This document shows positions 155 through 61,964 of a DNA stretch of 64,000 bases, one piece after another; within the stretch, counting starts at the first letter, position 1; each line of letters starts with the position of its first letter. Made by a program: the position numbers and the translations under genes. Location: positions 11,408,001-11,472,000 of the forward strand of contig NC_043026.1 of NCBI RefSeq assembly GCF_006345805.1, read 5' to 3'. Origin of the DNA: Octopus sinensis. Lineage: Eukaryota. The notes below the pieces were generated by a model. The model saw only the letters and a program-made list of their open reading frames with translations. It had not been told where the DNA came from and did not search any database.

Positions 155-576
155 TAATTTTCGCCACTACTATATGTATAAGGCCTGTGCGGGGGTCGGA
201 TGTGAGATGCTATGTACAAATTACACTATCACTTTCACGGCTGGGACACTTTCCCCTCACTCACGTCAATTCTATTTGCTGCAATAAAATCCAAATTGCC
301 TACCTCGTATTTCAGTTCGTTATGTGTGGATATGACTAGGGCTCGTTTAAGGTTAACATGCAATTCCGAAGAGAAAACAGGATCGAAAGAATTGGATGCA
401 TCACCGAACCCAGATCAGATGTCCCCATTGCTTGCCCAGAACAACCCCTTATCCTACCTCGGCGATCAAAAGATCGTGCTTCGAACGACACCACGTAGCG
501 ACACGTATATCGTGAATAACAAATAAAATCGCAGATCTATAGAAAATCGATAGTTTACAATCACGAAAATGTAGGT

Positions 577-592
577 GGCCCTTAAAAGGACC
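577..592 (-). promoter_or_regulatory. Histone 3' stem-loop of H2B
   Basis: Minus strand GGTCCT-TTTA-AGGGCC, 6-bp stem/4-nt loop, 23 nt after the stop. Confidence 0.93.
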
Positions 593-615
593 GTTTTTTT
601 TCAAGAGACCAAGAT

Positions 616-9618: not shown

Positions 9619-10243
9619 TTTTTAATAAAATTCTGAAATTCCAACTTTTTCACCCCCATCCCTTATTTATAATGTTAAAATATCAGGTCATTGCTGGGAG
9701 TCATCCTATAGTGACTTATAAAGGGTTGTGTAAAATATTTCTTTTAATAGAATTTTCCCAAATGTTTCAATCATCTTTTCTTACTTAAATCCCAGCAATG
9801 GACAACGCGTGAGTCACTCCGGCTGTAAAACATCAACATGTGAGTGACAAAGAAACGAAGTGTGGGCTAGAAACAACAGCCAAACCTCCCTTATATCAAA
9901 CCTTTGTAAGCGACTCCACCTAGTTTAAATTAAGCCCCGACACACGCAATTCGGATAGACTGGTTCCACATCACAGCACCGCCTGCCCGCTCTTTCTGTA
10001 TTGACACCGTATCCGCTTATTGTATCGCCACTGCCCTTAACATCCAAGAAATTATTGTCAGAAAGAAGTTACTTAAAGGATAAAAATTGCTGTCCACGAT
10101 ACGATCTCTTGGGTAATCTGTATTAAAAAAAAAACGGATTGGTGTTGTTTTACCGTTTCCTATGTTAGAAACGGGCAAGATAAACCACCCACATTAAAGA
10201 TCGCAAAGAAAACCGGCAAGAAGACTATGTGTAGAAAATGAGG

Positions 10244-10259
10244 GGCCCTGAAAAGGGCC
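10244..10259 (-). promoter_or_regulatory. Histone 3' stem-loop of H2A copy 2
   Basis: Reverse complement GGCCCTTTTCAGGGCC. Confidence 0.95.
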
Positions 10260-10293
10260 GTTATACGAAGGCAAACGCCATCAGCGAAGGCGC

Positions 10294-11305: not shown

Positions 11306-11326
11306 ATCTTGGTCTCTCGAGAAAAC

Positions 11327-11342
11327 GGTCCTTTTAAGGGCC
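11327..11342 (+). promoter_or_regulatory. Histone 3' stem-loop of H2B copy 2
   Basis: GGTCCTTTTAAGGGCC. Confidence 0.93.
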
Positions 11343-13902
11343 ACCTATATTTTCGTGATTGTAAACTATCGATTGTCTATTGATCTGCGATTTTAGTCCG
11401 TTACTCACCGCATAGATGTTGCGCGAAGACGATTCCACTTTTTTTCCTTTCTAGTCTGCACCGTGCATCTTGCCTTCTACACTAGCAACCGGCGAGCGAA
11501 CTTGTCACCACCGTTACCGTATTTTCCCGTGTAGCAGCCACTATTTTATTTTTAATCTAATAAAGAGTTATTGTCGAAATATTTGTAGTAAAATACAATG
11601 ACAATACGGTACTGTTTGAGAAGGGCGGTCCCTACGCTTGTACGCGTATGCAAATTAATAGATGGGTTTCTTTACACAAAGTAAATGGTTTTACAAAGTA
11701 ATTATTTTTGAAAAGCAATGTATAACACCTGTTTTTAGCACCCCCCCGACTGAATTTGTATGAACATTTGTTATAGGATCGACAATTTTTGGAATGGGTT
11801 TATCTTGCAATTTGCTCCTAATCTATTTACGTTGTTTGGAAAGAACAATTTAGTTAACTTGATTTACTAATAAATCAAGTCCTTTTCAGGGGCTAATGCC
11901 GTCACACCTTGAAAATGCATTTTTTAAGAAAATTATGTCAGATGAAAGTGCACCCGTTAACGGGAGCAAAAAGAGGCAGCCTACTGGGTGCGCAAACGAA
12001 CCTAGGGAGTGGGTACCCTCGCAAAATTCACAAGATCCGATTATTCCCTTGCAAATTTCGTCTCTAGTAGACCTTTCCGTAAATTTTTTTTTTTTTTTTA
12101 CATATGGGCTTGCGGGAACTTTCGAAGCAATATACATACATATACACATACACCGAGTAAAAGATTTCAGTTATCTCTTTCTTTCACACATTACTCTGTC
12201 TCTTCACACACTAACAGAAGCACTTCACTTACACAACATACTGTCTGTCTCCCACACCCCATCAAACACACACACACATGTACATCAATGCTTCATATGC
12301 ACGGTAACTTCAAAAGAACTTCACTCGTCATAAAATCGCTTTCTCTTAGTCTCTTTCGCTCTCATTGCTTCAAAAGTTCCCGCGAGCCCATATGTAAAAA
12401 AGAAAATTTTTTACGGAAATCGACAGAAAGGTCTACTAGAGACAAAAGATTGCCAACAGCTATTTCCGTTTGACGTAATTTTTCAACGCATAACGAAAGA
12501 ATACCGAGGTGGTCGTGGGATGTGCTTGTAATAGCTAAGGTCTCCCTAAACACCCTATCGTCTGAAAATGTAATTTTGTAAACAAATGGTTTTAAGTGCG
12601 CAGTGCCAATAAAGTCTAGTGGAAGGGTGAAAATTAATTTTTCAAAATATTTGTTCATGAACATGCTATCATTTGAACTCCGTGAGAATCAATTTGTGGG
12701 CGTATTTTATATTTGTTTTTTTTCCTTGTAAATAACTGCTACTGTTTGCCATTGGTGAGGTTGAAAGGTCAATAATGTAAACATGAGTGCCTTATCCATG
12801 TACATTTAGGACGATCCCACATATTAAAATAGCCTTCAGCTGCACTTATGCAGAACTCTTTGGGAGTAATATTGATTTTCGCAAAAACATACAACCCGAT
12901 ATCCAAATCATTAAACCATCGGGTTTCGGGCGACCACGCATAGTGTTAAACCAGGTCAAAAAAACAACTTCCTCTGAACGAATATGAAAAAAAAAAAAAG
13001 CGCGCACGCGGTGGGGGAGAGGCCTCGGAAAATTCACATCGGGAAGTTCCGAAAGCGTCTGAGGGGCTGACCCGGGCACCAAAACAAAAAAAAATAGTGT
13101 AATATGTGTAAAACAACTTGCTCTAAACGAATATGATGATAAAAAATGCGCGCTCGCGAAAGAGGGGTGGGGGAGAGGCCTCGGAAATTTCACATCTTCA
13201 GTCCACGGCCTTTTAAACTAAGAAAAAAATAGTGTAATTGGTGTAAAACTACTTGTTCTAAACGATTATCAAGAACACACATGAATCATAAACTCTATTT
13301 TTGTACGTATTTCGCAACAAAAAAGAGAAATTCTGGAAAAAGTGAAGAAATTTTAAAGTTAAAGAAAACATTCCTTATGAGATAACTTAATTTCACTTGT
13401 TAGTACCATGTTTTTCTACAAGATCTTTTCAAGAAATACAGTTACATAAACACACTTAGGTCATATTTCTTTATTACCCACAAGGGGCTAACGAAGAGGG
13501 GGACAATACATCATGATTTGGGGTCATGAGACACAGATGAAATTTACATATAAATGATCTTTAAAAATTATTACATGAGATTGAAAACAAAAATCGAAGA
13601 AATCGAATGATACACAAATTTTTACAGCACAACATAAAAACGACACATGAAGTGGGAACACCGGGATTGCCGACCCCACGAGCCCTGTTTTTCCCACCGA
13701 AACTCGGCAGCCAACTTACGGCGAAACATTCTTTGATTGGTTTATTTATAATCCTTCCGAGTGAATATGCAAATATCGCAGTTAATCTTTCTCTTGCTGT
13801 CAACTAATAGATGACCTGCTGGTAATTGAAATGAAAATATTCTGAAATTAGAGCAAGACATATGCAAATTGTTAGGCTTTTTGGAAAATTATGATTAATA
13901 TA

Positions 13903-14170: not shown

Positions 14171-14981
14171 ATGTTACTTTGTTATTCTAGACTCAGGGAG
14201 GAACGACCAAATTTATCTCACTACCTATTTTTCCACTGAACAAATTTTAAAACACTTGACATTTGTTTGATAGATAGATACCCGAGAATTTTAAGAGGGT
14301 ACATTACAAACGTACATTTATATTATTCTTTAAAAAAATTGATCTGCTTACTTTTTATTTTATTGTTTTTACTGGAACTTAAATACAATCATACAGTATA
14401 GTATAACCTATTGTAGCCGACTAAATAAACAACTGACTGCAATCTTGCTACGCTAGTAAATCTGTAAAATACCCAACGGATGCTTATCTGAAATGGAGAA
14501 AATACTTAAACTTTATCAAGCCGAATAAAATTCGGTAAAAACGACTAAGCAAAGAGAAAGATGAGTTGTTTTACACTATCACAATTTTTTAATTTTTGTT
14601 TGGTGCCCGGATCAGCCCCTCAGACGCTTTCCCGAGGCCTCTCCCCCACTCCCCTTTCGCGTGCGCGCATTTTTTTTTCATATCCGTTTAGAAGTTGTTT
14701 TACGCCTATTACACAATCTTTTTATTTTGACCGGGTTTAACCGAAAGATCGTGGGTCCGCTCGTAAACAAAAGCAAAACAAGAAAGGGTCTAACCCTGAG
14801 GTTAAAATGGAAAATCGAAGAAAAAAATGCAAAAGGCAAAACTTTGGAAAAGCTGCAAACTGATATCTGTGAAACAAACGAAAAAGATTGAGAAACTCAA
14901 GGAAGAAACCGAAGCAGATATTCAAACTAAATCTACTTAAGCATATCGAAAAGGTGAGGTGGCTTACATTAAGATATGAGT

Positions 14982-14997
14982 GGCCCTGAAAAGGGCC
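14982..14997 (-). promoter_or_regulatory. Histone 3' stem-loop of H4
   Basis: Reverse complement GGCCCTTTTCAGGGCC. Confidence 0.95.
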
Positions 14998-15045
14998 GGG
15001 TTTTGTCGCTACTCACGACCTCGAAGTTAGAAAAACTTCACCAGT

Positions 15046-16064: not shown

Positions 16065-16098
16065 ATTGAAAATAATGAAGCTAATGCTTTATCCCAAC

Positions 16099-16114
16099 GG
16101 CCCTTTTCAGGGCC
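16099..16114 (+). promoter_or_regulatory. Histone 3' stem-loop of H3
   Basis: GGCCCTTTTCAGGGCC. Confidence 0.95.
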
Positions 16115-16786
16115 TCTAAATTTTTTCGTAAAGTTCTGCTAACCCTTAAGATAGTGTTATGTTTCGTGTTTTCGTGTCGTGAATTGTTTATTCGAAATAA
16201 GATCGATATATTCTTTTCCTGAGGCTGAGGATGGCGATTTAAGCATTGGACTTATTCGTTCCGCCAAGTGTAATTCTAAATTAAACTTATTCATTCCTCT
16301 AAGTGTAATTTTAAATAGGGCTCGGCAATTTCGGTGATAGTATGTCCGGCACGGTTTTGTTTTCCCGAATCGCTCGTTTGTATTTTGTATTTGTATCTAT
16401 ACGGATCTTGCATCACAAATAAACCGCGATGATCGTTAGTTTCAGTCTTGAGATATTTAGATTTCGAAGCTTTCGTTGCGAGTGAATCGGAACGAATTGT
16501 CCGTTGGATCAGGTTCCATTTTTTAGTAGTTTCGGGAAATCAAAAGTTGACTGGCACTCGCATTTCATACTAACGCATAACGTCTGCAGAGTAGTCTAAA
16601 TTGTGATGTATGCGCTTTCGATTTCACTGTAAATAGTTCCATTTCATCCACATGAACCCTAATCGTTGTATTGTCCCCATCTATGTAGACCCTTATGGGT
16701 AATAAAGAAATAGCATCCGATCTGAAAGGTATTTATTTGAAGAATACTTACGGACTGCCCGTTTTGGAAAATCTTACTCCCCTGTT

Positions 16787-22628: not shown

Positions 22629-25600
22629 TTAGTGATATGGTTTCTCTCCTTTGTGAATATGAATACGTTTGTGTATCTCAGAATAACTTTTTCGAGAGAA
22701 TGATTTACCACAGATATCACAGTGGTATGGCTTCTCTCCTGTATGACATCTTTTGTGAACAGTCAAACTATCGGTTCGAGGAAATGATTTACCACAGATA
22801 TCACAACAATACGGTTTCTCTCCTGTGTGAATGCGTTTGTGTCTCTCACACTGATATCTTTGAGAGAATGATTTACCACAGATTTCACAATGATATGGAC
22901 TCTCTCCTGTATGACTTTGTTTGTGTACAGTCAAATGTTCATTTCGAGAGAATGATTTACCACAGATATCACAGCAATACGGTTTGTCTCCAGTATGAAT
23001 ACATATGTGTTTAGTTAATTCACCATTATCGCTGAAAGATTTACCACAGATATCACAATGGTATGGATTCTCTCCTGGGTGAATACGTTTGTGTTTATCA
23101 AAGTTGCTTCTTTGAGCGAATGATTTACCACAGATATCGCACTGATATGGTTTCTCCCCTGTATGAATACGTTCGTGTTTGGTTAAAGTGCCACTTTGAG
23201 AGAATGATTTACCACAGACGTCACAATGATATGGCTTCTCTCCTGTATGTATACGTCTATGTTGAATTAATATGCTACCTGCAGAAAATGAGTTACCACA
23301 AATATCACAGTGAAATGGTTTCTCTCCTGTATGACTTTGTTTGTGTCTCTCAGACTGATATCTTTGAGAGAATGATTTACCACATATATCACAGTGATAT
23401 GGTTTTTCTCCAGTATGAATGTGTTTGTGTACAGTCAAATATTCATTTCGAGAGAATGATTTACCACAGATATCACAGTGATATGGTTTCTCTCCTGTGT
23501 GAATGCGTTTGTGTCTCTCAGACTGACATCTTTGAGAGAATGATTTACCACAGATATCACAGTGATGTGGTTTCTCTCCTGTGTGAATGCGTTTGTGTCT
23601 CTCAGACTGATATCTTTGAGAGAATGATTTACCACAGATATCACAGTGATATGGTTTTTCTCCTGTATGACTTTGTTTGTGTACAGCCAAATGTACATTT
23701 CGAGAGAATGATTTACCACAGATATCACAGCGATATGGTTTTTCTCCTGTATGAATACGCTTATGTGTATTTAAATCATACTTTTGACGGAATGATTTAC
23801 CACAGACATCACAGTGATATGGCTTCTCTCCTGTGTGAATGTGTTTGTGTACAGTTAAAGCATATATTCGCGAAAATGATTTATCACAGATATCACAATG
23901 ATATGGTTTTTCCCCTGTATGAACACGTTTGTGAATAGTTAAAGAATTTCCTTTAGAGAATGATTTACCACAGATTTCACAGCGATATGGTTTCTCCCCT
24001 GTATGACTTCTTTTGTGTACAGTTAAGGAAGAACTTTGATGAAATGATTTACCACAAATATCACAGTGATATGATGTCTCTCTTTTGTGAATACATTTGT
24101 GGTTATTAAAGTGACTTTTATGAGCGAATGATTTATCACAGGTATTACAGTGATATGGCTTCTCACCTGTATGAATCCGTTTGTGTACAATTAAACCATC
24201 AATTTGATGAAATGATTTACCACAGATATCACAACAATATGGTCTCTCACCTGTATGATATCTTTTGTGTATAGATAAGCCATCAATTCGACAAAATGAT
24301 TTACCACAGATATCACAATGATATGGCTTCTCACCTGTATGAATACGTTTGTGTTGGGTTAAAACATAACTTCGAGAGAATGATATACCACAGATATCAC
24401 AGTGATATGGCTTCTCTCCTGTGTGAATACGTCTATGCAGTGTTAAGAGATCCTTTCTTGAGAATGATATACCACAAATATCACACTGATATGGTTTTTC
24501 ACCTGTATGGCTCCTTTTGTGTACAGTTAAGCCATCATTTCGAACAAATGATTTACCACAGATATCACAGTGATATGGTTTTTCTCCAGTATGAATACAT
24601 ATGTGTTTAGTTAAATCACCATCATCGCTGAAAGATTTACCACAGGTAACACACTGATATGGTTTCTCTCCTGGGTGAATACATTTGTGTCTATCAAAGG
24701 GACTTCTTTGAGCGAATGATTTACCACAGATATCGCACTGATATGGTTTCTCTCCTGTATGAATACGTTTGTGTACAGTTAGGCCATCAAATCGATGAAA
24801 TGAATTACCGCAGATATCACAACAATATGGTTTCTCTCCTGTATGAATACGTTTGTGTTTGGTTAAAACATAACTTTGAGAGAATGATTTACCACAGATA
24901 TCACAGTGATATGGCTTCTCTCCTGTATGAATATGTTTATGGAGGGTTAAGAAATATTTTGTTGAGAATGATTTACCACAGATATCACAGTGATATGGTT
25001 TTTCTCCTGTGTGAATGCGTTTGTGTACAGTTAATTGACGTGTTTGAGAGAATGATTTACCACAGACGTCACAATGATATGGCTTCTCTCCTGTATGAAT
25101 ACGTCTATGTTTAATTAATATGCCACCTGCAGAAAATGATTTACCACAAATATCACAGTGAAATGGTTTCTCACCTGTATGACTTCGTTTGTGATCAGTA
25201 AGGTGATTACTTCGAGAGAACGATTTACCACAGATATCACAGTGATGTGGCTTCTCTCCTGTATGAATACGTTTATGGAGGGTTAAGAAATATTTTGTTG
25301 AGAATGATTTACGACAGATATCGCACTGATATGGTTTCTCCCTTGTATGAATACGTTCGTGTTTGGTTAAAGTGCCACTCTGAGAGAATGATTTACCACA
25401 GATATCACAGTGATATGGTTTTTCTCCTGTATGGCTTCGTTTGTGTACAACTAAGTAGCCACTTTGAGTGAATGATTTACCACAAATATTACAGCAATAT
25501 GGTTTCTCTCCAGTATGAATACGTTTGTGTTTGCTTAAAGCACCACTTTGAGAAAACGATTTACCACAGATATCACAGTGATAGGATGGTTTCAGTTTCT

Positions 25601-25685
25601 CTTCCTTTATATCACTGGAAAAACCAATGCTTCCAATCTGTAATTTAGATTCAAACTTATTCTCACATAATTCATTTTCCATCAT
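22629..25685 (-). CDS. Poly-C2H2 zinc-finger protein (ZNF-A), 35 fingers, 1018 aa
   Basis: Tandem CxxC-x12-HxxxH units with TGEKP linkers after a ~34-aa leader; no KRAB/BTB/SCAN domain visible. Confidence 0.95.
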
Positions 25686-26039
25686 TGTTCTTTCCTCACT
25701 ACAATTTCCAGGTGTTTATCTTCTTCACTTTTATATATTTTATTGCTAATAAATATTTATACTACTGTGATCTTTGCTGATATATCATGGACGTTGCAAA
25801 TCCCTCTATAAATCCACTGAAGTTCTTTTCAGATGCAAAATAATCTTGGACACATTCCAGACAGTCAAGAATGCAGTTTTTGTTATCAATCTGAGTTCAG
25901 GAGAAAATGTTTGGCTGTAATATTCCAAAGATTTATATAAGCAGAGTTATATGTGTTCTGCATAAGATTTTCTTTTGAGTCTTTAAACAAGGATATTGAT
26001 GATGTATACCATTCTTAGATGCCAATGTCATTTGTTATT

Positions 26040-29619: not shown

Positions 29620-31553
<1,934 letters not shown>

Positions 31554-32416
31554 TGTTCTTTCCTCACTACAATTTCCAGGTGTTTATCTTCTTAACTTTT
31601 ATATATTTTATTGCTAATAAATATTTATACTACTGTGATCTTTGCTGATATATCATGGACGTTGCAAATCCCTTTATAAATCCACTGAAGTTCGTTTCAG
31701 ATGCAAAATAATCTTGGACACATTCCAGACAGTCAAGAAAGCAGTTGTTGTTATCAATCTGAGTTCAGGAGAAAATGTTTGGCTGTAATATTCCAAAGAT
31801 TTATATAAGCAGAGTTATGTGTGTTCTGCATAAGATTTTCTTTTGAGTCTTTAAACAAGGATATTGATGATGTATACCATTCTTAGATGCCAATGTCATT
31901 TGTTATTCTGAAACAGTAGAGAAAAAAACAGAATAAGATATAGCAGACACTTAAAATAAAGCAGTAGAAATTCTAGAATATTTCTTATATTATAATTGAA
32001 CTGTTTCCCTCTATTTTCAAGATGTAGATAAATAAATGGGTGTGTGGTAACGAAATTTATTTTCTAACCACGTGGTCTTGATTTCAATCCCTCTTTGTGC
32101 AACTCACTTCTGCTTTGGGCAACAAGTTAACCAAAGCCTTGTGTGTGGATTTGGTAAACAGCATCAGTGTGGAAACTTATGTGTATGTATGTTTATGTAT
32201 GTGTGTGTGTATGTACATACATACATCATACATGTATGTATATATCTAAATATATATAAAACTCAACTTGTGTCTGTGCATGTATCTGTGTGAATCGCAG
32301 TAAACATTGTAGAAATTCAGCAAAGAAATGAATTTTCGGCATGTAGCCTAAAGGGGTTTTTGTATTAATATATATATATATGTATGTAAATATATATATA
32401 TATATATATATATATA

Positions 32417-39593: not shown

Positions 39594-40884
<1,291 letters not shown>

Positions 40885-41587
40885 TGTTCTTTCCTCACTA
40901 CAATTTCCAGGTGTTTATCTTCTTCACTTTTATATATTTTATTGCTAATAAATATTTATACTACTGTGATCTTTGCTGATATATCATGGACGTTGCAAAT
41001 CCCTCTATAAATCCACTGAAGTTCGTTTCAGATGCGAAATAATCTTGGACACATTCCAGACAGTCAAGAAAGCAGTTGTTATTATCAATCTGAGTTCAGG
41101 AGAAAATGTTTGGCTGTAATATTCCAAAGATTTATATAAGCAGAGTTATATGTGTTCTGCATAAGATTTTCTTTTGAGTCTTTAAACAAGGATATTGATG
41201 ATGTATACCATTCTTAGATGCCAATGTCATTTGTTATTCTGAAACAGTAGAGAAAAAAACAGAATAAGATATAGCAGACACTTAAAATAAAGCAATAGAA
41301 ATTCTAGAATATTTCTTATATTATAATTGAACTGTTTCCCTCTATTTTCAAGATGTAGATAAATAAATGAGTGTGTGGTAATGAAATTTATTTTCTAACC
41401 ATGTGGTCTTGATTTCAATCCCTCTTTGTGCAACTCACTTCTGCTTTGGGCAACAAGTTAACCAAAGCCTTGTGTGTGGATTTGGTAAACAGCATCAGTG
41501 TGGAAACTTATGTGTATGTATGTTTATGTATGTGTGTGTGTATGTACATACATCATACATATATATATATCTATATATATAAAACTC

Positions 41588-44633: not shown

Positions 44634-45016
44634 GAAAAAATTCAAATCGGACCATTTTAACACCAAAAATTACTTACATCAAAGAGGTGCCTTTTTTCTA
44701 TGAAAATCCCTATTTTTTACGATGTTTTGACTGCTGTGTTCACATTTTTCACAAGCTACATACTGCCAAATTTTTACTTTTCAAAAATTCCAATTCTAAA
44801 GAGTCTAAACAAACCGCAATGCCGGGCGATACTGCTAGTATGTATATATATATATATAATATAAAATAAAATAAATATAAGAGAGTGGTCACTATATGGC
44901 TCACTCTAGCACCAGTTAATCCAAAAGGTTTCAACCACAAAAATACATGTTTCCCATGAAAGTCAGTACGATTGTTAGCTCACACGGACAGGGCAAATAA
45001 AAAATAACAAAAATAC

Positions 45017-45110
45017 AGATTATTTTGGGACAATTGTTTCGCTATTAATGAATTAAATGTAATTTTACTTACAAAAAAATCCACTTGTAGCTCGTCAGCC
45101 AAAACTATCT
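45017..45110 (-). ncRNA. Type I hammerhead ribozyme motif
   Basis: Minus: TTTTGG-CTGACGA-GCTA[loop]TAGC-GAAA-CAATTG-TC-CCAAAA; intact CUGANGA/GAAA core, GUC triplet, stems I-III paired. Confidence 0.82.
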
Positions 45111-45226
45111 GGATGAAATCCACTCAATCACACGCCAGATTCTACCATAACGATAAATACGCGTGTGGTTCAATTGATTACATCCGACGTTATAATTCAA
45201 ATGCCCCAGCTAACAGCGCGCCAAAC

Positions 45227-49419: not shown

Positions 49420-50298
49420 TTACCATTGAAATGGCTTCCTCCCTATGTGAATGCATTTGTGTTTGGTTAAAGTGCTATGAAAAGGGAATGATTTACCACA
49501 GATATGACAATGATATGGTTTCTCTCCTGTGTGAATACGTTTGTGATCAGTTAAATTCCCTCTTCGACAGAATGGTTTACCACAGATATCACAGTAAAAT
49601 GGCTTCTCCCCAGTATGAATACGCTTGTGGACAGTTAAATTGCTACTTTGAGAGAATGATGTACCACAGATATCACAGTTATATGGCTTCTCACCAGTAT
49701 GAATACGTTCGTGATTAGTCAAATTCCTTCTTTCAGAGAATGATTTACCACAGATATCGCAGTGGAATGGCCTCTCTCCAGTATGAATACGCGTGTGAGA
49801 TATTAGGGCACTTCGAAAAGAGAATGATTTACCGCAGATATCACAGTGAAACGGTTTCTCTCCTGTATGATTATGCTTGTGAGATGTTAGAGAACTTGCA
49901 GCAGGGAATGATTTACCACAGATATCGCATTCAAATGGCTTCTCTCCTGTATGAATACGTTTGTGAGAAGTCAAAATGCTACTTTGAGAGAATGATTTAC
50001 CACAGATATCACAGTGAAATGGCTTCTCCCCCGTATGAATACGTTTGTGAGATCTCAAGGAACTTCCACAAGAGGATAATTTACCACAGATATCACAGGG
50101 AAATAGCCTCTTACTAATATGAATACGTTCGTGATTAGTTAAGTCACTTCGAGCAAGGAATGATTCACCACAAATATCACAGTGGAACGGCTTCTCTCCT
50201 GTATGAATTCGTTTATGGGTAGTTAAACTATGTTTGTAAGTGAAAAACGTTTTACAGATATTGCACTGATATCTTGGTTGTGGTTTCTCTTTCGACAT
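49420..50298 (-). CDS. Poly-C2H2 zinc-finger protein (ZNF-C1), 10 fingers, 292 aa
   Basis: MSKEKPQP leader followed by 10 tandem fingers. Confidence 0.92.
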
Positions 50299-51949
50299 CT
50301 CTTCACAATAATAATATATTTTCCAGCTTTCTCACACAATCCATTTGTCCATTATTTTATTGTCATGATCACATGGATATATTTCCTGTTTACATTCAAA
50401 AGTTTATTCCAAACAAATAATTTTACAGCCTTATTTCCATTGACTGCTGTCTCTGCTAATGTCTAAAGCTGATGTAAGATTCTGTTTAAAATTATCCAAG
50501 TTTAATTTGTGTATAAAATCATTTTGTAGACATTCCACACAGTTAAGAAATATTGCTATCAATTTCAGTTCAGAAGAAATATTTTACTGTAATTCTCTAG
50601 GGTTATTATTTTCTTTCAGCTTTGAAGGTGATAAATTTTGATGGAAACAATGCTGCGATGCCAATGTCGTCTGATATTCTGAAATAAAAAAAGAAAAACA
50701 ATAGTGTAAGTTATAGAGGACATTTTAAAACAAAGTTAAAACAGTGGATCACAACTAAAACCTTCACCATCATTATTTCCAATCCTTGTGATAGAAGCTG
50801 AATTTTTCTATAAAAAACGTCTGATAATTTTGCAGCTTCAATAAAAAAATATATTACTCTACTTTTGGTATTCAAGTACTACTTTTTCTACTCTTTTTCG
50901 CATCTGTGTGCTCACCTCTGTTTAACCCTTTCGTTACTGTATTTATTTTGAGATGCTCTGTGTTTCTTTCAATTACTTTAAATATACCAAAGAATTTAGT
51001 AAAATAACTTAGTTATCATTAAGCTGGTGTTAGGAACATAAATTGTGACTAAGGTTTGGTGGAAGATTTTAATTCAAAACTTATGAAAACAAGACATTTG
51101 TACTCAGAGCCAGAGGTGGTTTCAACCAGGTTGTTATCAAAAGGGTTAAGAATTGTTTCTCTATTATATATTTTAACCCTCTCGTTACCATACTTCTGTT
51201 GAGATGCTCTGTGTTTCTTTCAATTAATTTTAAATATAACAAAGAATTTAGTAAAATAACTTAGTTATCATTAAGCTGGTGTTAGGAACATAAATTGTGA
51301 CTAAGGTTTGGTGGAAGATTTTAATTCAAAACTTATGAAAACAAGACATTTGTACTCAGAGCCAGAGGTGGTTTCAACCAGGTTGGTATCGAAAGGGTTA
51401 AAATGTCACACAGTGGGAATGTACCTAGAACCCCACGGTTGGGAAGCAAGCTACTTCTCACACAGCCATGCGTACAGACACAGGATCCTTTCTGTTTGAA
51501 CGGCAGTTTTTTCTAGCGGTGTCATATGAAATTGTCACCCATAATTATGACCCTTGTATCGATCTATTGCATTTCAACCTGTTTTAGGGTTAGGGGTGGG
51601 GGGAAGGGTATCTTTTTTTTTCTTCAGAAATGTAAATAAACCCAATCTGTTTCTTAAACGAGGGACATATTCATATGGCACACATTGTTTTCACCTCAAT
51701 AGACGTCATTGATTGGTTGAAATTGCAGAAATTGAAGAGAAAAAAACAACAAATATCTTACAAACCATAGAATTTTCTCAATAAAGCCAAGAGAAAAAGA
51801 TGTTTTATAAACACATTCTACCAGTATACGAAGTTTAAAAGTGTTTAGTTACCTAGAAATTATTTTAAAAAAAACTGCCGGTGAAACCGAAAAGAACCGG
51901 CACATATTTTATGTATTGGTTATGTTGGCACGTTACATACTCTCTCTTT

Positions 51950-53490
51950 TTCTCTTTTCCTTGTTTCAGTCATTTGACTGCGGCCATGCTGGAGCACCGC
52001 CTTTAGTCAAGCAAATCGACCCCGGGACTTATTCTTTGTAAGCCCAGTACTTATTCTATCGGTGTCTTTTGCCGAACCGCTAAGTGACGGGGACGTAAAC
52101 ACACCAGCATCGGTTGTCAAGCAATGCTAGGGGAACAAACACAGACACACAAACGTACACGCACATCTATATATACATACATTTTTACGACGGGTTTCTT
52201 TCAGTTTCCGTCTACCAAATCCACTCACAAGGCATAGGTCGGCCCGGGGCTATAGCAGAAGACACTTGCCCAAGATGCCACGCTGTGGGACTGAACCCGG
52301 AACAATGTGGTTGGTTAGCAAACTACTTACCACACAGCCACTCCTATATACATATATACGACAGGCTTCTTTCAGTTTCCGTCTACCAAATCCACTCACA
52401 AGGCTTTGGTCGGCCCGGGGCTATAGCAGAAGACACTTGCCCAAGATGCCGCGCAGTGGGACTGAACCCGAAACCATGTGGTTGGTTAGCAAGCTACTTA
52501 CCACACAGCCACTCCTATATACATATATACGACAGGCTTCTTTCAGTTTCCGTCTACCAAATCCACTCACAAGGCATTGGTCGGCCTGGGGCTATAGCAG
52601 AAGACACTTGCCCAAGATGCCGCGCAGTGGGACTGAACCCGGAACCATGTGGTTGGTTAGCAAGCTACTTACCACACAGCCACTCCTATATACATATACA
52701 CGACAGGCTTCTTTCAGTTTCCGTCTACCAAATCCACTCACAAGGCTTTGGTCGGCCCGGGGCTATAGCAGAAGACACTTGCCCAAGATGCTGCGCAGTG
52801 GGACTGAACCCGCAAACATGTGGCTGGTTAGCAAGCTACTTACCACACAGCCACTCCTGCGCCTATGTTTATGATTTATATACTGTTCATGATTTGACAA
52901 CATTACATAAACATCACAAATTATGGGCTGTCTCTGTAGTCATTTTTGATTCCTCTCACAATTCACTTTCATTTTCCAAAACACTTTGCTTTCCGTTTTT
53001 AAACAATTTGCATTCGCTATTTTGGGACTGAAAACTCAAACGTTACTCTTTTTACTTGTTTTAATCATTTTGACTGCGGCCATGCTGGAGCACCGCCTTT
53101 AATCGAGCAACTCGACCCCGGGGGACTTATTCTTTTGTAAGCCCAGTACTCATTCTATCGGTCTCTTTTGCCGAACCGCTAAGTGACGGGGACGTAAACA
53201 CACCAGCATCGGTTGTCAAACAATGCTAGGGGGACAAACACACACATATATATATATACTCTTACTCTTTTACTTGTTTCAGTCATTTGACTGCGGCCAT
53301 GCTGGAGCACCGCCTTTAGTCGAGCAACTCGATCCTCGGGGCTTATTCTTTTGTAAGCCCAGTACTCATTCTATCGGTCTATTTTGCCGAACCGCTAGGC
53401 GACGGGGACGTAAACACACCGGCATCGGTTGTCAAGCAATGCTAGGGGGACAAATACAAACACATACACACACACACACATATATATATA
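51950..53490 (-). mobile_element. SINE cluster: one tail with four tandem heads (52188-52864, period 171 bp) and two tandem tails (53044-53490)
   Basis: Head units start at 52188, 52359, 52530 and 52701. Confidence 0.9.
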
Positions 53491-53708
53491 TATAGATAGA
53501 TAGATAGATAGATGAGTGTATTTTTACCTTGTTAACAATTAACACGGAAAAAATAAATAAATAGTTACCAGGGCAGCAAAAATCTCACAAGTAAAGATGT
53601 TGTAACTCCTTGTTTATAGAGGTAGAAACTTCGTGTTTACGTTGAATATTTTGAATAATATATGAATAAATAAATGGAGTTTAACGCAGGTGTAAACAAA
53701 TATTTTTT

Positions 53709-53794
53709 ACTTTCTACACATGTTTCGAAAATTCCACTGATACTATTCAAAAGAATAAATGGTATAAACAATGCAATCTTCTCCTCAGGAAAGT
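53709..53794 (-). ncRNA. Type I hammerhead ribozyme motif
   Basis: Minus: ACTTTC-CTGAGGA-GAAGATT[loop]AATTTTC-GAAA-CATGTG-TA-GAAAGT; intact core, GUA triplet, 6-bp stem I, 7-bp stem II. Confidence 0.82.
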
Positions 53795-54025
53795 GAAAAA
53801 AGCGAAACTTGTCAATATGACATTTTAGCAAAAAATGATGGATTTGTATAGCGATAGACAGAATGCTATTAATATTGTTTAAAAAAACGGTATATGATAT
53901 AACGTCATAAGTAGCTAACAGAAAGAGTAGGGATACCAATAGTGAATGTTGAATATAAAGGAAATTAAAGTTTAAATTATATATAATGATAGAGACTACT
54001 TATATGCACTAAATGTATATATATA

Positions 54026-54612
54026 TACGACAGGCTTCTTTCAGTTTCCGTCTACCTAATCCACTCACAAGGCTTTGGTCGACCCGAGGCTATAGTAGAA
54101 GACACTTACCAAAGGTGCCATGCAGTGGAACTGAACCCGGAACCATGTGGTTGGTAAATATATATATATATTTACCAACCACATGGTTCCGGGTTCAGTT
54201 CCACTGCGTGTCACCTTGGGCAAGTGTCGTCTACTATAGCCTCGGGCCGACCAAAGCCTTGTGAGTGGATTAGGTAGATGGAAACTGAAAGAAGCCTGTC
54301 GTGTATATATATATACATATATATATACATTTAGTGCATATAAGTAGTCTCTATCATTATATATAAAATAGTATATTAATTTTCTTTATATTTAACATTC
54401 ACTATTAATATCCCTACTCTTTCTGTTAGCTACTTATGACGTTATATATATATATATATATATACGACAGGCTTCTTTCAGTTTCCGTCTACCAAATCCA
54501 CTCACAAGGCTTTGGTCAGCCCGAGGCTATAGTAGAAGAAACTCGCCCAAGGTGCCACGCAGTGGGACTGAACCCGGAACCATGTGGTTGGTAAGCAAGC
54601 TACTTACCACAT
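54026..54612. mobile_element. Three SINE heads (54026-54156 minus, 54171-54302 plus, 54463-54612 minus)
   Basis: Family homology; the first two are the centre of a palindrome. Confidence 0.88.
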
Positions 54613-60705: not shown

Positions 60706-61734
60706 CTACCTTGTGTGAATACGTTTGTGCATAGTTAATTTACCTTTTGCAGGGAATGATTTACCACAGGTATCACAGTGAAATGGCTTCTCCCCTGTGT
60801 GAGTACGTATGTGCAGACTTAATTTACCTTTTTCAGAGAATGATTTCCCACAGATATCACACTGATATGGTTTCTCCCCTGTATGAATACGTTCGTGTTT
60901 GGTTAAAGTACCACTTTGAGAGAATGATTTACCACAGGTATCACAATGAAAAGGCTTCTCACCTGTATGAATACGTTCATGTTTATTTAATATGCTACCT
61001 GAAGAAAATGATTTACCACAAATATCACAGTGAAATGGCTTCTCTCCTGTGTGAATACGTATGTGCAGGGTTAATTTACCATTTTCAGAGAATGATTTAC
61101 CACAGATATCACAGTGATATGGTTTCTCCCCTGTATGAATACGTTCATGCTTGGTTAAAGTGTTACTCTGAGAGAATGATTTACCACAAATATTACACTG
61201 AAATGGCTTCTCTCCAGTATGAATTCGCTTGTGAGATGACAAGCCACTTCCAACAGAGAATAATTTACCACAGATATCGCAGTGAAACGGTTTCTCTCCT
61301 GTATGAACACGCTTGTGAGATGTTAAAGCACTTCCAACAGAGAATGATTTACCACAGGTGTCGCATTCAAAGGGCTTCTCACCTGTATGAATACGTTTGT
61401 GATAAGTCAAAACGCTACTTTGAGAGAATGATTTACCACAGATATCACAGTGAAATGGCTTCTCCCCCGTATGAATACGTTTGTGAGATATCAAGGCACT
61501 TCCACAAGAGGATAATTTACCACAGATATCACAGGGAAATAGCCGCTCACTAACATGAATACGTTTGTGCTTAGTTAAGTCACTTCGAACAGGGAATGAT
61601 TCACCACAGATGTCACAGTGGAATGGCTTCTCTCCTGTATGAATTCGTTTGTGGGTAGTTAAACTATGTTTGTAAGTGAAAAACGTTTTACAGATATTGC
61701 ACTGATATCTCAACTGTGGTTTCTCTTTCGACAT
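60706..61734 (-). CDS. Poly-C2H2 zinc-finger protein (ZNF-C2), 12 fingers, 342 aa
   Basis: Leader and first fingers homologous to ZNF-C1. Confidence 0.92.
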
Positions 61735-61964
61735 CTCTTCACAATAAAAATATATTTTCCAGCTTTCTCACACAATCCTCAATTTGCTTTTATCAGCACA
61801 ATACAGGCCGAGGCATTTCCTGTTCCATTCGACAGTTTATTCCTAAGAAGTATATTTACTGTTCTCTTTCCTTCGGCTGCATTCTTTGTTAATATCTGAA
61901 GATGCTGTAAGAGTCTTTTCAAAATTACCCAAGTTTAATTTGTGTATGAAATCACTCTGTAGAC

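What the first reader, a model, noticed from the sequence alone, without database searches (positions are those of the whole stretch)
53709..53794. Second, unrelated hammerhead in the ZNF-C1 intron
Seen: minus strand ACTTTC-CTGAGGA-GAAGATT...AATTTTC-GAAA-CATGTG-TA-GAAAGT, with a perfect 6-bp stem I, 7-bp stem II and GUA triplet. Stem sequences differ completely from the 45 kb motif while the topology is the same, including an enlarged loop II of about 40 nt. It lies in a ~480-bp AT-rich insertion (~53515-54000) beside a microsatellite. Inference: a distinct large-loop-II hammerhead retroelement family.
Basis: partly seen in the sequence, partly recalled or inferred. Interest (0 to 1): 0.75.

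Follow-up and report, generated by a model that had tools for sequence, protein, structure and literature searches.

The report
Long-armed hammerhead of linkerless Penelope element
This is a hammerhead RNA motif, predicted to cut itself mainly when two copies pair, at the tail of a broken copy of a recently active Penelope-like jumping gene; its side arm is over twice as long as in published relatives, and the element's enzyme lacks the zinc-binding module thought to aim insertions at TA repeats, yet its copies still end in TA repeats.

Summary
The motif is real: a complete type I hammerhead at 53794-53709 (minus strand), not matched in 100 shuffled windows. It is not a small stand-alone retroelement. 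The 53504-54018 insertion is the 5'-truncated tail (last codons, 3' UTR/pseudo-LTR) of an autonomous 2.86-kb Penelope-like retrotransposon related to the Hydra clade. Two copies have intact 775-aa RT + GIY-YIG ORFs and are 99.8% identical; the ORF evolved under purifying selection (dN/dS 0.16). The '40-nt loop II' folds as a 55-nt extended helix II (published Hydra range 10-24 nt). The family triplet is GUC; GUA is this copy's variant. Helix III is palindromic, so cleavage likely needs a dimer; it is untested. Genomic 5' junctions are not enriched at the cut site, and 3' ends fall at two fixed sites downstream of it. The lineage has lost the CxCX5C linker (0 of 39 pieces, against 98 of 100 homologs) yet still ends in (TA)n, which tests a published targeting hypothesis. 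The intron location is unverified.

The parts
53709..53794 (-). Type I hammerhead motif; predicted cut between 53715 and 53714 (GUA; family norm GUC)
53727..53781 (-). Extended helix II, 55 nt: 7 bp, G.G mismatch, 5 bp, UUU bulge, 4 bp, C.A mismatch, 5 bp, hexaloop (predicted). The proximal 12 pairs are largely kept in the older subfamily (one broken); the distal part is re-registered.
53716..53723 (-). Self-complementary helix III (ACAUGUGU): 2 bp as a monomer, 8 bp between two copies (predicted duplex -8.0 kcal/mol)
53504..54018 (-). 5'-truncated 3' end of the Penelope-like element (unit positions 2351-2859; 95% to L031)
53996..54016 (-). Last codons and stop of the RT/GIY-YIG ORF (..FSAYK*)
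   Evidence: sequence compared
53504..53657 (-). Optional ~150-bp tail between the two fixed 3' ends of the family (unit 2710 and 2860)
53480..53512 (.). (TA)n/(GATA)n microsatellite at the 3' junction, inside a composite SINE-like repeat
54016..54313 (.). Palindrome of two ~149-bp SINE-like pieces at the centre of a fold-back inversion
54325..54452 (+). Inverted second arm of the element (unit 2351-2478), without a hammerhead, ending in (TA)n

Best explanation
The motif is the pseudo-LTR hammerhead of an autonomous, recently active Penelope-like retrotransposon related to the Hydra clade, left here in a 5'-truncated copy, and it likely cuts tandem read-through RNA only when two copies pair through the palindromic helix III (or with the element's protein assisting). 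[quoted passage not shown] Inferred: the nuclease nicks TA microsatellites; the RT primes internally on uncut or re-ligated RNA at two AUAU-containing sites that give 4-6 nt of microhomology to the target; it stops at random and often folds back. Cleavage does not set the ends of genomic copies. The extra arm of helix II is likely tolerated so long as it stays folded. The lone copy in this window has no partner motif in cis, so it would be expected to be nearly silent.
For: Copies extend 5' into RT-EN frames. L031 has 475-bp direct pseudo-LTRs. Intact ORFs in L070 and L071 are 99.8% identical, and the L070 pseudo-LTR pair is 99.6% identical. dN/dS against the older subfamily is 0.16 overall and 0.07 in the nuclease, while private changes in young copies give 0.62. 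The AlphaFold model (pLDDT 84.5) matches telomerase RT best, E 6e-9. 781 homologs were found, and the 120 listed show the Hydra motifs. Piece ends followed by a TA run: 44 of 54 at unit 2860 and 37 of 47 at 2710, against 5 of 52 other ends and a 4-10% background. The core is kept across two subfamilies about 80% alike, with one U-A to C-G change in helix I and one-sided G.U to G-C and U.G to U-A changes in helix II. The active dimer is predicted at -44.8 kcal/mol against -36.2 for two monomers; the active monomer fold has probability 0.015. Published PLE hammerheads cleave weakly, as dimers or with protein (PMC4209133; PMC11167929).
Against: Cleavage was not assayed and no RNA evidence was obtained. 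Covariation rests on two lineages only: pairs with double changes were reached by 182 of 500 shuffles, one proximal pair is broken in the older subfamily, and 3 of 9 distal pairs fail in about half the rows. Within each subfamily the core is no better conserved than its surroundings (7/407 vs 14/1587; 14/363 vs 51/1515), as expected for neutrally decaying copies but giving no support. The protein is a long branch whose place in the tree is unsure, and it lacks the Hydra linker and has RWL for RWK.
Confidence: 0.85

Rival explanations
1. Mechanistic alternative within the same identity: the hammerheads cut tandem RNA to 2860-nt units, these are ligated into circles, and the RT copies the circle for more than one round.
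For: 21 of 22 copies holding the ORF start are preceded by the element's own 3' end; 15 of those 21 run back beyond the upstream cut site, and both fixed 3' ends lie past the cut site, so a linear cut monomer cannot be the template. Proposed for PLEs in PMC4209133.
Against: An uncut linear tandem transcript gives the same anatomy. For the Anolis PLE, unprocessed RNA was the main substrate and hammerhead mutants inserted normally in vitro (PMC11167929).
Confidence: 0.3
2. The hammerhead no longer cuts in this lineage and is a passenger whose helix II drifted long.
For: No excess of 5' junctions at the cut site; no enrichment of conservation in the core within subfamilies; no loop 1/loop 2 contact is evident.
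Against: All 11 scored core positions agree between two subfamilies whose synonymous sites differ by 39%, and helix I has a compensatory change.
Confidence: 0.12
3. One reading: a small non-coding retrozyme-like family of about 480 bp that makes small circular RNAs.
For: Hundreds of short copies exist (at least 498 exact pattern matches), and such a small element does exist at 45 kb (535-bp tandem unit).
Against: 5' ends are variable and run into the ORF; the window copy itself starts inside the last codons; the tandem unit is 2860 bp.
Confidence: 0.03
4. The copy has been co-opted to cut a ZNF pre-mRNA.
For: It lies on the same strand as the flanking ZNF frames, and its core is intact.
Against: It is an ordinary 95%-identical repeat copy with no second hammerhead in cis; cross-pairing with the 45-kb motif is weak (-4.1 vs -8.0 kcal/mol); the intron status is unknown.
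Confidence: 0.02

Closest known systems
Hydra-clade Penelope-like elements, including Hydra-1_Obim (Craig et al. 2021, PMC8557442; seen: abstract, outline, section 11, passages, supplement parts 2 and 7 and search hits)
   Same: Under 3 kb, one ORF with RT and C-terminal GIY-YIG, DKT motif, no CCHH, CxxC and CxH flanking the catalytic E and N, hammerhead near the 3' end with palindromic helix III, (TA)n target, tandem and inverted copies.
   Different: No CxCX5C linker; RWL instead of RWK; helix II 55 nt against 10-24 nt in the 26 Hydra rows of File S2; tail 150 bp against 30-40 bp. By eye a different family from Hydra-1_Obim (775 vs 709 aa, unrelated hammerhead stems).
Minimal PLE hammerheads (Cervera and De la Pena 2014, PMC4209133; seen: text parts 1-2 of 4)
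   Same: Type I, in pseudo-LTRs, G10.1-C11.1 pair, palindromic helix III implying dimers, mostly found as single motifs in truncated copies.
   Different: Helix II far beyond the 7-8 bp they call large; no extra nucleotide between A9 and G10.1.
PAc Poseidon element of Anolis (Frangieh et al. 2024, PMC11167929; seen: passages and section 3 part 2)
   Same: Two internal RT start sites bracketing an optional tail; AT-rich targets; the hammerhead cut site is not an end of insertions.
   Different: Here both start sites share 4-6 nt of TA microhomology with the target, the tail is 150 bp, and the hammerhead is in the 3' UTR rather than overlapping the start codon.
PLE-X1 hammerheads of Selaginella (PMC8557442 File S2)
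   Same: Long helix II/loop 2 (for example 9 + 35 + 9 nt), a printed precedent for long arms in PLEs.
   Different: Plant, nuclease-less, rDNA-targeting elements.
Non-LTR retrozymes (PMC7229834, passages; bioRxiv 10.64898/2026.07.22.740005, listing and passages)
   Same: Type I hammerhead with short helix III in an AT-rich repeat.
   Different: Retrozymes are ~300-bp non-coding tandem units; this unit is 2860 bp and coding. The 45-kb element fits that class better.

Membership tests
Type I hammerhead ribozyme | CUGANGA / GAAA / NUH core with helices I-III in type I order | tested here: met
   0 strict hits in 100 shuffled windows
Type I hammerhead ribozyme | Self-cleavage after N17 | not testable with these tools
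   needs an in vitro assay
Type I hammerhead ribozyme | Match to an Rfam hammerhead model | tested here: not met
   likely due to helix II length (inference)
Canonical metazoan hammerhead | 4-bp helix II whose loop contacts helix I | tested here: not met
   helix II is 55 nt with a terminal loop about 21 pairs from the core
PLE minimal hammerhead | Palindromic helix III, G10.1-C11.1, position in pseudo-LTR | tested here: met
PLE minimal hammerhead | [quoted passage not shown] | tested here: not met
   CUGAGGA is followed directly by G10.1; 7 of 26 published Hydra rows also lack it
Penelope-like elements (EN+) | Single ORF with telomerase-like RT and GIY-YIG nuclease | tested here: met
   nuclease by motif and alignment; Pfam gave no hit
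Penelope-like elements (EN+) | Pseudo-LTRs from partial tandems, 5' truncation, inverted 5' pieces, optional tail | tested here: met
Hydra clade | Under 3 kb, C-terminal EN, hammerhead present | tested here: met
   2860-bp unit
Hydra clade | DKT motif; CCHH absent; CxxC and CxH beside the catalytic E and N | tested here: met
   SDKT at 121, one Cys only in the GIY-YIG core, CLLCNSE at 735, RCKH at 762
Hydra clade | RWK motif | tested here: inconclusive
   RWL at the same place; homologs show RWK 51, RWR 17, other 4
Hydra clade | CxCX5C linker before the nuclease | tested here: not met
   0 of 39 family pieces; 98 of 100 homologs match, the other 2 keep cysteines with other spacing. Filed as a Hydra-related variant, not a plain member.
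Hydra clade | (TA)n insertion | tested here: met
   81 of 101 fixed ends against 5 of 52 other ends
Hydra clade | RT phylogeny with named references | tested here: inconclusive
   only a quick tree of 47 unnamed homologs, no outgroup, long branch
Non-LTR retrozymes | Short (~300 bp) non-coding tandem unit | tested here: not met

The most novel reading that the evidence does not exclude
A still-active Penelope-like lineage that discarded the zinc-finger linker credited with microsatellite targeting and instead aims through RNA-target TA microhomology at two internal priming sites, copying a 2.86-kb RNA circle made by a hammerhead whose long helix II is needed, for example as a docking site for the element's own protein.
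Probability: 0.15. Interest if true: 0.7.

Novelty: new variant of a known kind. Interest (0 to 1): 0.4.

Why it matters
Hammerheads in Penelope-like elements are known, including one octopus Hydra family, so the basic finding is ordinary. Two things go beyond what I found in print. First, long helix II arms escape Rfam and short-arm descriptors, so these motifs are under-counted. Second, this family is a natural knockout of the CxCX5C linker, which PMC8557442 associates with (TA)n targeting, yet it is autonomous, young and still TA-targeted. With intact 99.8%-identical copies in hand, it offers a direct test of what aims PLE insertion and of what the PLE hammerhead does, both stated as open in PMC8557442 and PMC11167929.

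Tried and rejected
Rfam: no hammerhead hit. Pfam: no RT or GIY-YIG hit for family frames or 4 homologs. PDB sequence search: nothing significant. Cut site as the RNA's 5' start: 3 junctions exactly at the cut (L183-L185) looked like a footprint, but the wider pattern (95 rows, by-eye tally 47 junction rows, about 42 after removing 5 duplicates, over 35 positions) gave 3 at the cut, 2 one base later, and 5 each at two other positions, so there is no enrichment. Searches used a minority variant and were repeated with the majority. Expression: no RNA holder listed; contigs of 4 runs cover the element's 3' end but cannot show strand, ends or level. No read evidence on the intron question was obtained, so it stays open. 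Origin of the SINE-like pieces in the fold-back from the right flank: not supported beyond background (92.9% vs a best background of 92%); the two element arms differ at a site polymorphic in the family, so a single fold-back event is likely but not certain. Homology between the 45-kb unit and this unit: none. The careful tree did not finish. A look-up by sequence and one near the place found no earlier notes. Literature searches: hammerhead + octopus, Penelope-like + hammerhead ribozyme, hammerhead/retrozyme/'long stem II' (phrase absent in the 20 listed), Penelope/Hydra clade/cephalopod from 2021; none described this family, the long arm in cephalopods, or linker loss. PMC13282606 (passages) has no mention of ribozyme or Hydra. 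I saw only 2 of 59 parts of the PMC8557442 supplement plus search hits, could not see bioRxiv supplements, and had no Repbase or Dfam, so the family may already be catalogued there.

Full report
Observation. The minus strand at 53794-53709 reads helix I (6 bp), CUGAGGA, a 55-nt helix II region, GAA, ACAUGUGU, A17 and the closing strand of helix I. A loose type I descriptor found only this motif and the 45-kb one in the window; 100 shuffled windows gave 0.1 loose and 0 strict hits each. The 41 nt called loop II fold into a continued hairpin (22 of 1000 shuffles fold as well). Rfam has no hammerhead match. Repeat content, genome size and C2H2 arrays suggest an octopus-like host; this is inference.

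What carries it. The 496-bp insertion has 3125 first-look candidates in G000; the 40 scored include 39 other near-full matches at 95-97%. Exact 22-25-mer patterns give at least 398 + 100 copies. In the 30 loci fetched, the 3' end is shared and runs into microsatellite, while the 5' extent varies and leads into RT and GIY-YIG frames. L031 holds a full copy between 475-bp direct repeats, defining a 2860-bp unit: ATG at 51, stop near 2372, core at 2581, cut after 2654. Of the top hits for the ORF start I fetched 20, plus L031 and L032. Of these 22, 21 are preceded by the element's own 3' end, 13 end at unit 2710, 8 at 2860, and 1 runs off the locus (L063 duplicates L031). L070 and L071 have intact 775-aa ORFs, 99.8% identical, at distant loci. 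The window copy is unit 2351-2859 plus an inverted arm 2351-2478 around a SINE-like palindrome, all set in the (TA)n of a composite repeat.

Protein. A search gave 781 homologs; the listed ones are 27-40% identical, and one is labelled from Argonauta. They show the motifs that PMC8557442 section 11 gives for the Hydra clade. The model (pLDDT 84.5) matches telomerase RTs first. Of 120 homologs, 100 reach the nuclease; 98 have a CxCx4-7C linker and 2 a respaced one. This family has none in 39 of 39 pieces spanning the region, older subfamily included, whereas sister families in the same genome (L129, L130, L136, L137) keep it. The nuclease residues are intact, and the ORF was under purifying selection between the young and old subfamilies: dN/dS 0.16 over 562 codons, 0.07 in the nuclease, and 1 non-synonymous against 3 synonymous changes in the cysteine-less linker; private changes in young copies give 0.62. 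The element is therefore autonomous. The quick tree groups it with five close homologs, but on a long branch and without outgroup.

Target and ends. Across 80 loci, 153 piece ends were scored: 44 of 54 at 2860 and 37 of 47 at 2710 are followed by a TA run, against 5 of 52 other ends and a 3.7-9.9% background. The ratio of the two ends is biased by how loci were chosen. Both ends coincide with short TA-containing sequence in the element, so microhomology priming could explain targeting without the linker (inference). Both ends recur in the older subfamily. This matches the two internal RT start sites and optional tail shown for PAc (PMC11167929), here with a 150-bp tail.

Ribozyme. The family triplet is GUC; the window's GUA is a point variant, and A at N17 occurs in several published Hydra motifs. 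The core is intact in 30 of 37 young and 21 of 33 old copies, with no excess conservation within subfamilies (duplicates and the window row dropped). Between subfamilies (16 old and 14 young rows of those held), helix I has one compensatory and one wobble change, and proximal helix II two supportive changes and one broken pair; the distal arm shifts register but still folds. With two lineages this is weak evidence. Helix III is self-complementary; the active dimer is predicted at -44.8 kcal/mol, near the dimer minimum of -45.2, against -36.2 for two monomers. This agrees with the dimer model and low activity in PMC4209133. Published Hydra helix II inserts are 10-24 nt in 26 rows; Selaginella PLE-X1 offers a long precedent. 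Three loci of another Hydra-like family in this genome have 57-65-nt arms.

Does cleavage shape copies? Not visibly. Fifteen of 21 tandem copies extend past the upstream cut site, and 5' junctions are no more frequent at the cut than nearby (by-eye tally). The template is uncut tandem RNA or a re-ligated circle; these data cannot separate the two.

Earlier notes. My reading was recorded before the first look-up. Six notes report long-armed Hydra hammerheads in this and similar genomes; they are unchecked AI notes and not independent support. One look-up for linker loss found nothing.

Verdict. A real hammerhead of a known class of retroelement, in a variant form: long helix II, 150-bp tail, and a nuclease without the zinc linker. 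Function at this locus is unlikely. Interest 0.4.

Noticed in passing
window 44850-45226 (-); L038-L062: The 45-kb hammerhead (51-nt helix II) belongs to a younger (98-99% identical) 535-bp non-coding unit found in tandem arrays of up to at least 4, with PLE-like inverted arms, two recurring 3' ends and TA targets; no ORF was found in 25 loci within 1.5 kb of flank. It looks like a retrozyme-type non-autonomous partner of a PLE.
   Followed up: partly
L125, L134, L138, L139: Another Hydra-like family with the linker intact and a GC-rich 57-65-nt helix II hammerhead about 430-540 nt after the nuclease.
   Followed up: partly
L083-L112 cluster (38 loci): The best-scoring Hydra-like family for the P0002 nuclease has a long microsatellite-like 3' UTR; my descriptor found no hammerhead within 900 nt.
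   Followed up: no
G000 rows; L183-L185: 5' junctions mostly join to an inverted piece of the element's own 3' end through 3-5 nt of microhomology; some whole insertions are only ~100 bp.
   Followed up: partly
window 552-597, 1647-1692, 10219-10264, 11322-11367, 14957-15002, 16094-16138: Six histone 3' stem-loop matches below the gathering score, suggesting a histone gene cluster in the first 16 kb.
   Followed up: no
window 22632-25715, 30360-31583, 39691-40914, 49423-50331, 60709-61767 (all -): Tandem cluster of C2H2 zinc-finger frames, including one with 35 fingers; 28.4-31.4, 37.8-40.8 and 47-50 kb are ~86% duplicates.
   Followed up: no
window 52177-52858 and 53043-53466: Tandem copies (171 bp x4, 216 bp x2) of the two halves of the SINE-like repeat whose internal (TA)n received the insertion.
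   Followed up: partly
PMC8557442 File S1: Naiad_Ovul is annotated 'HHR_half_core' (core halves 35-50 nt apart); not examined here.
   Followed up: no
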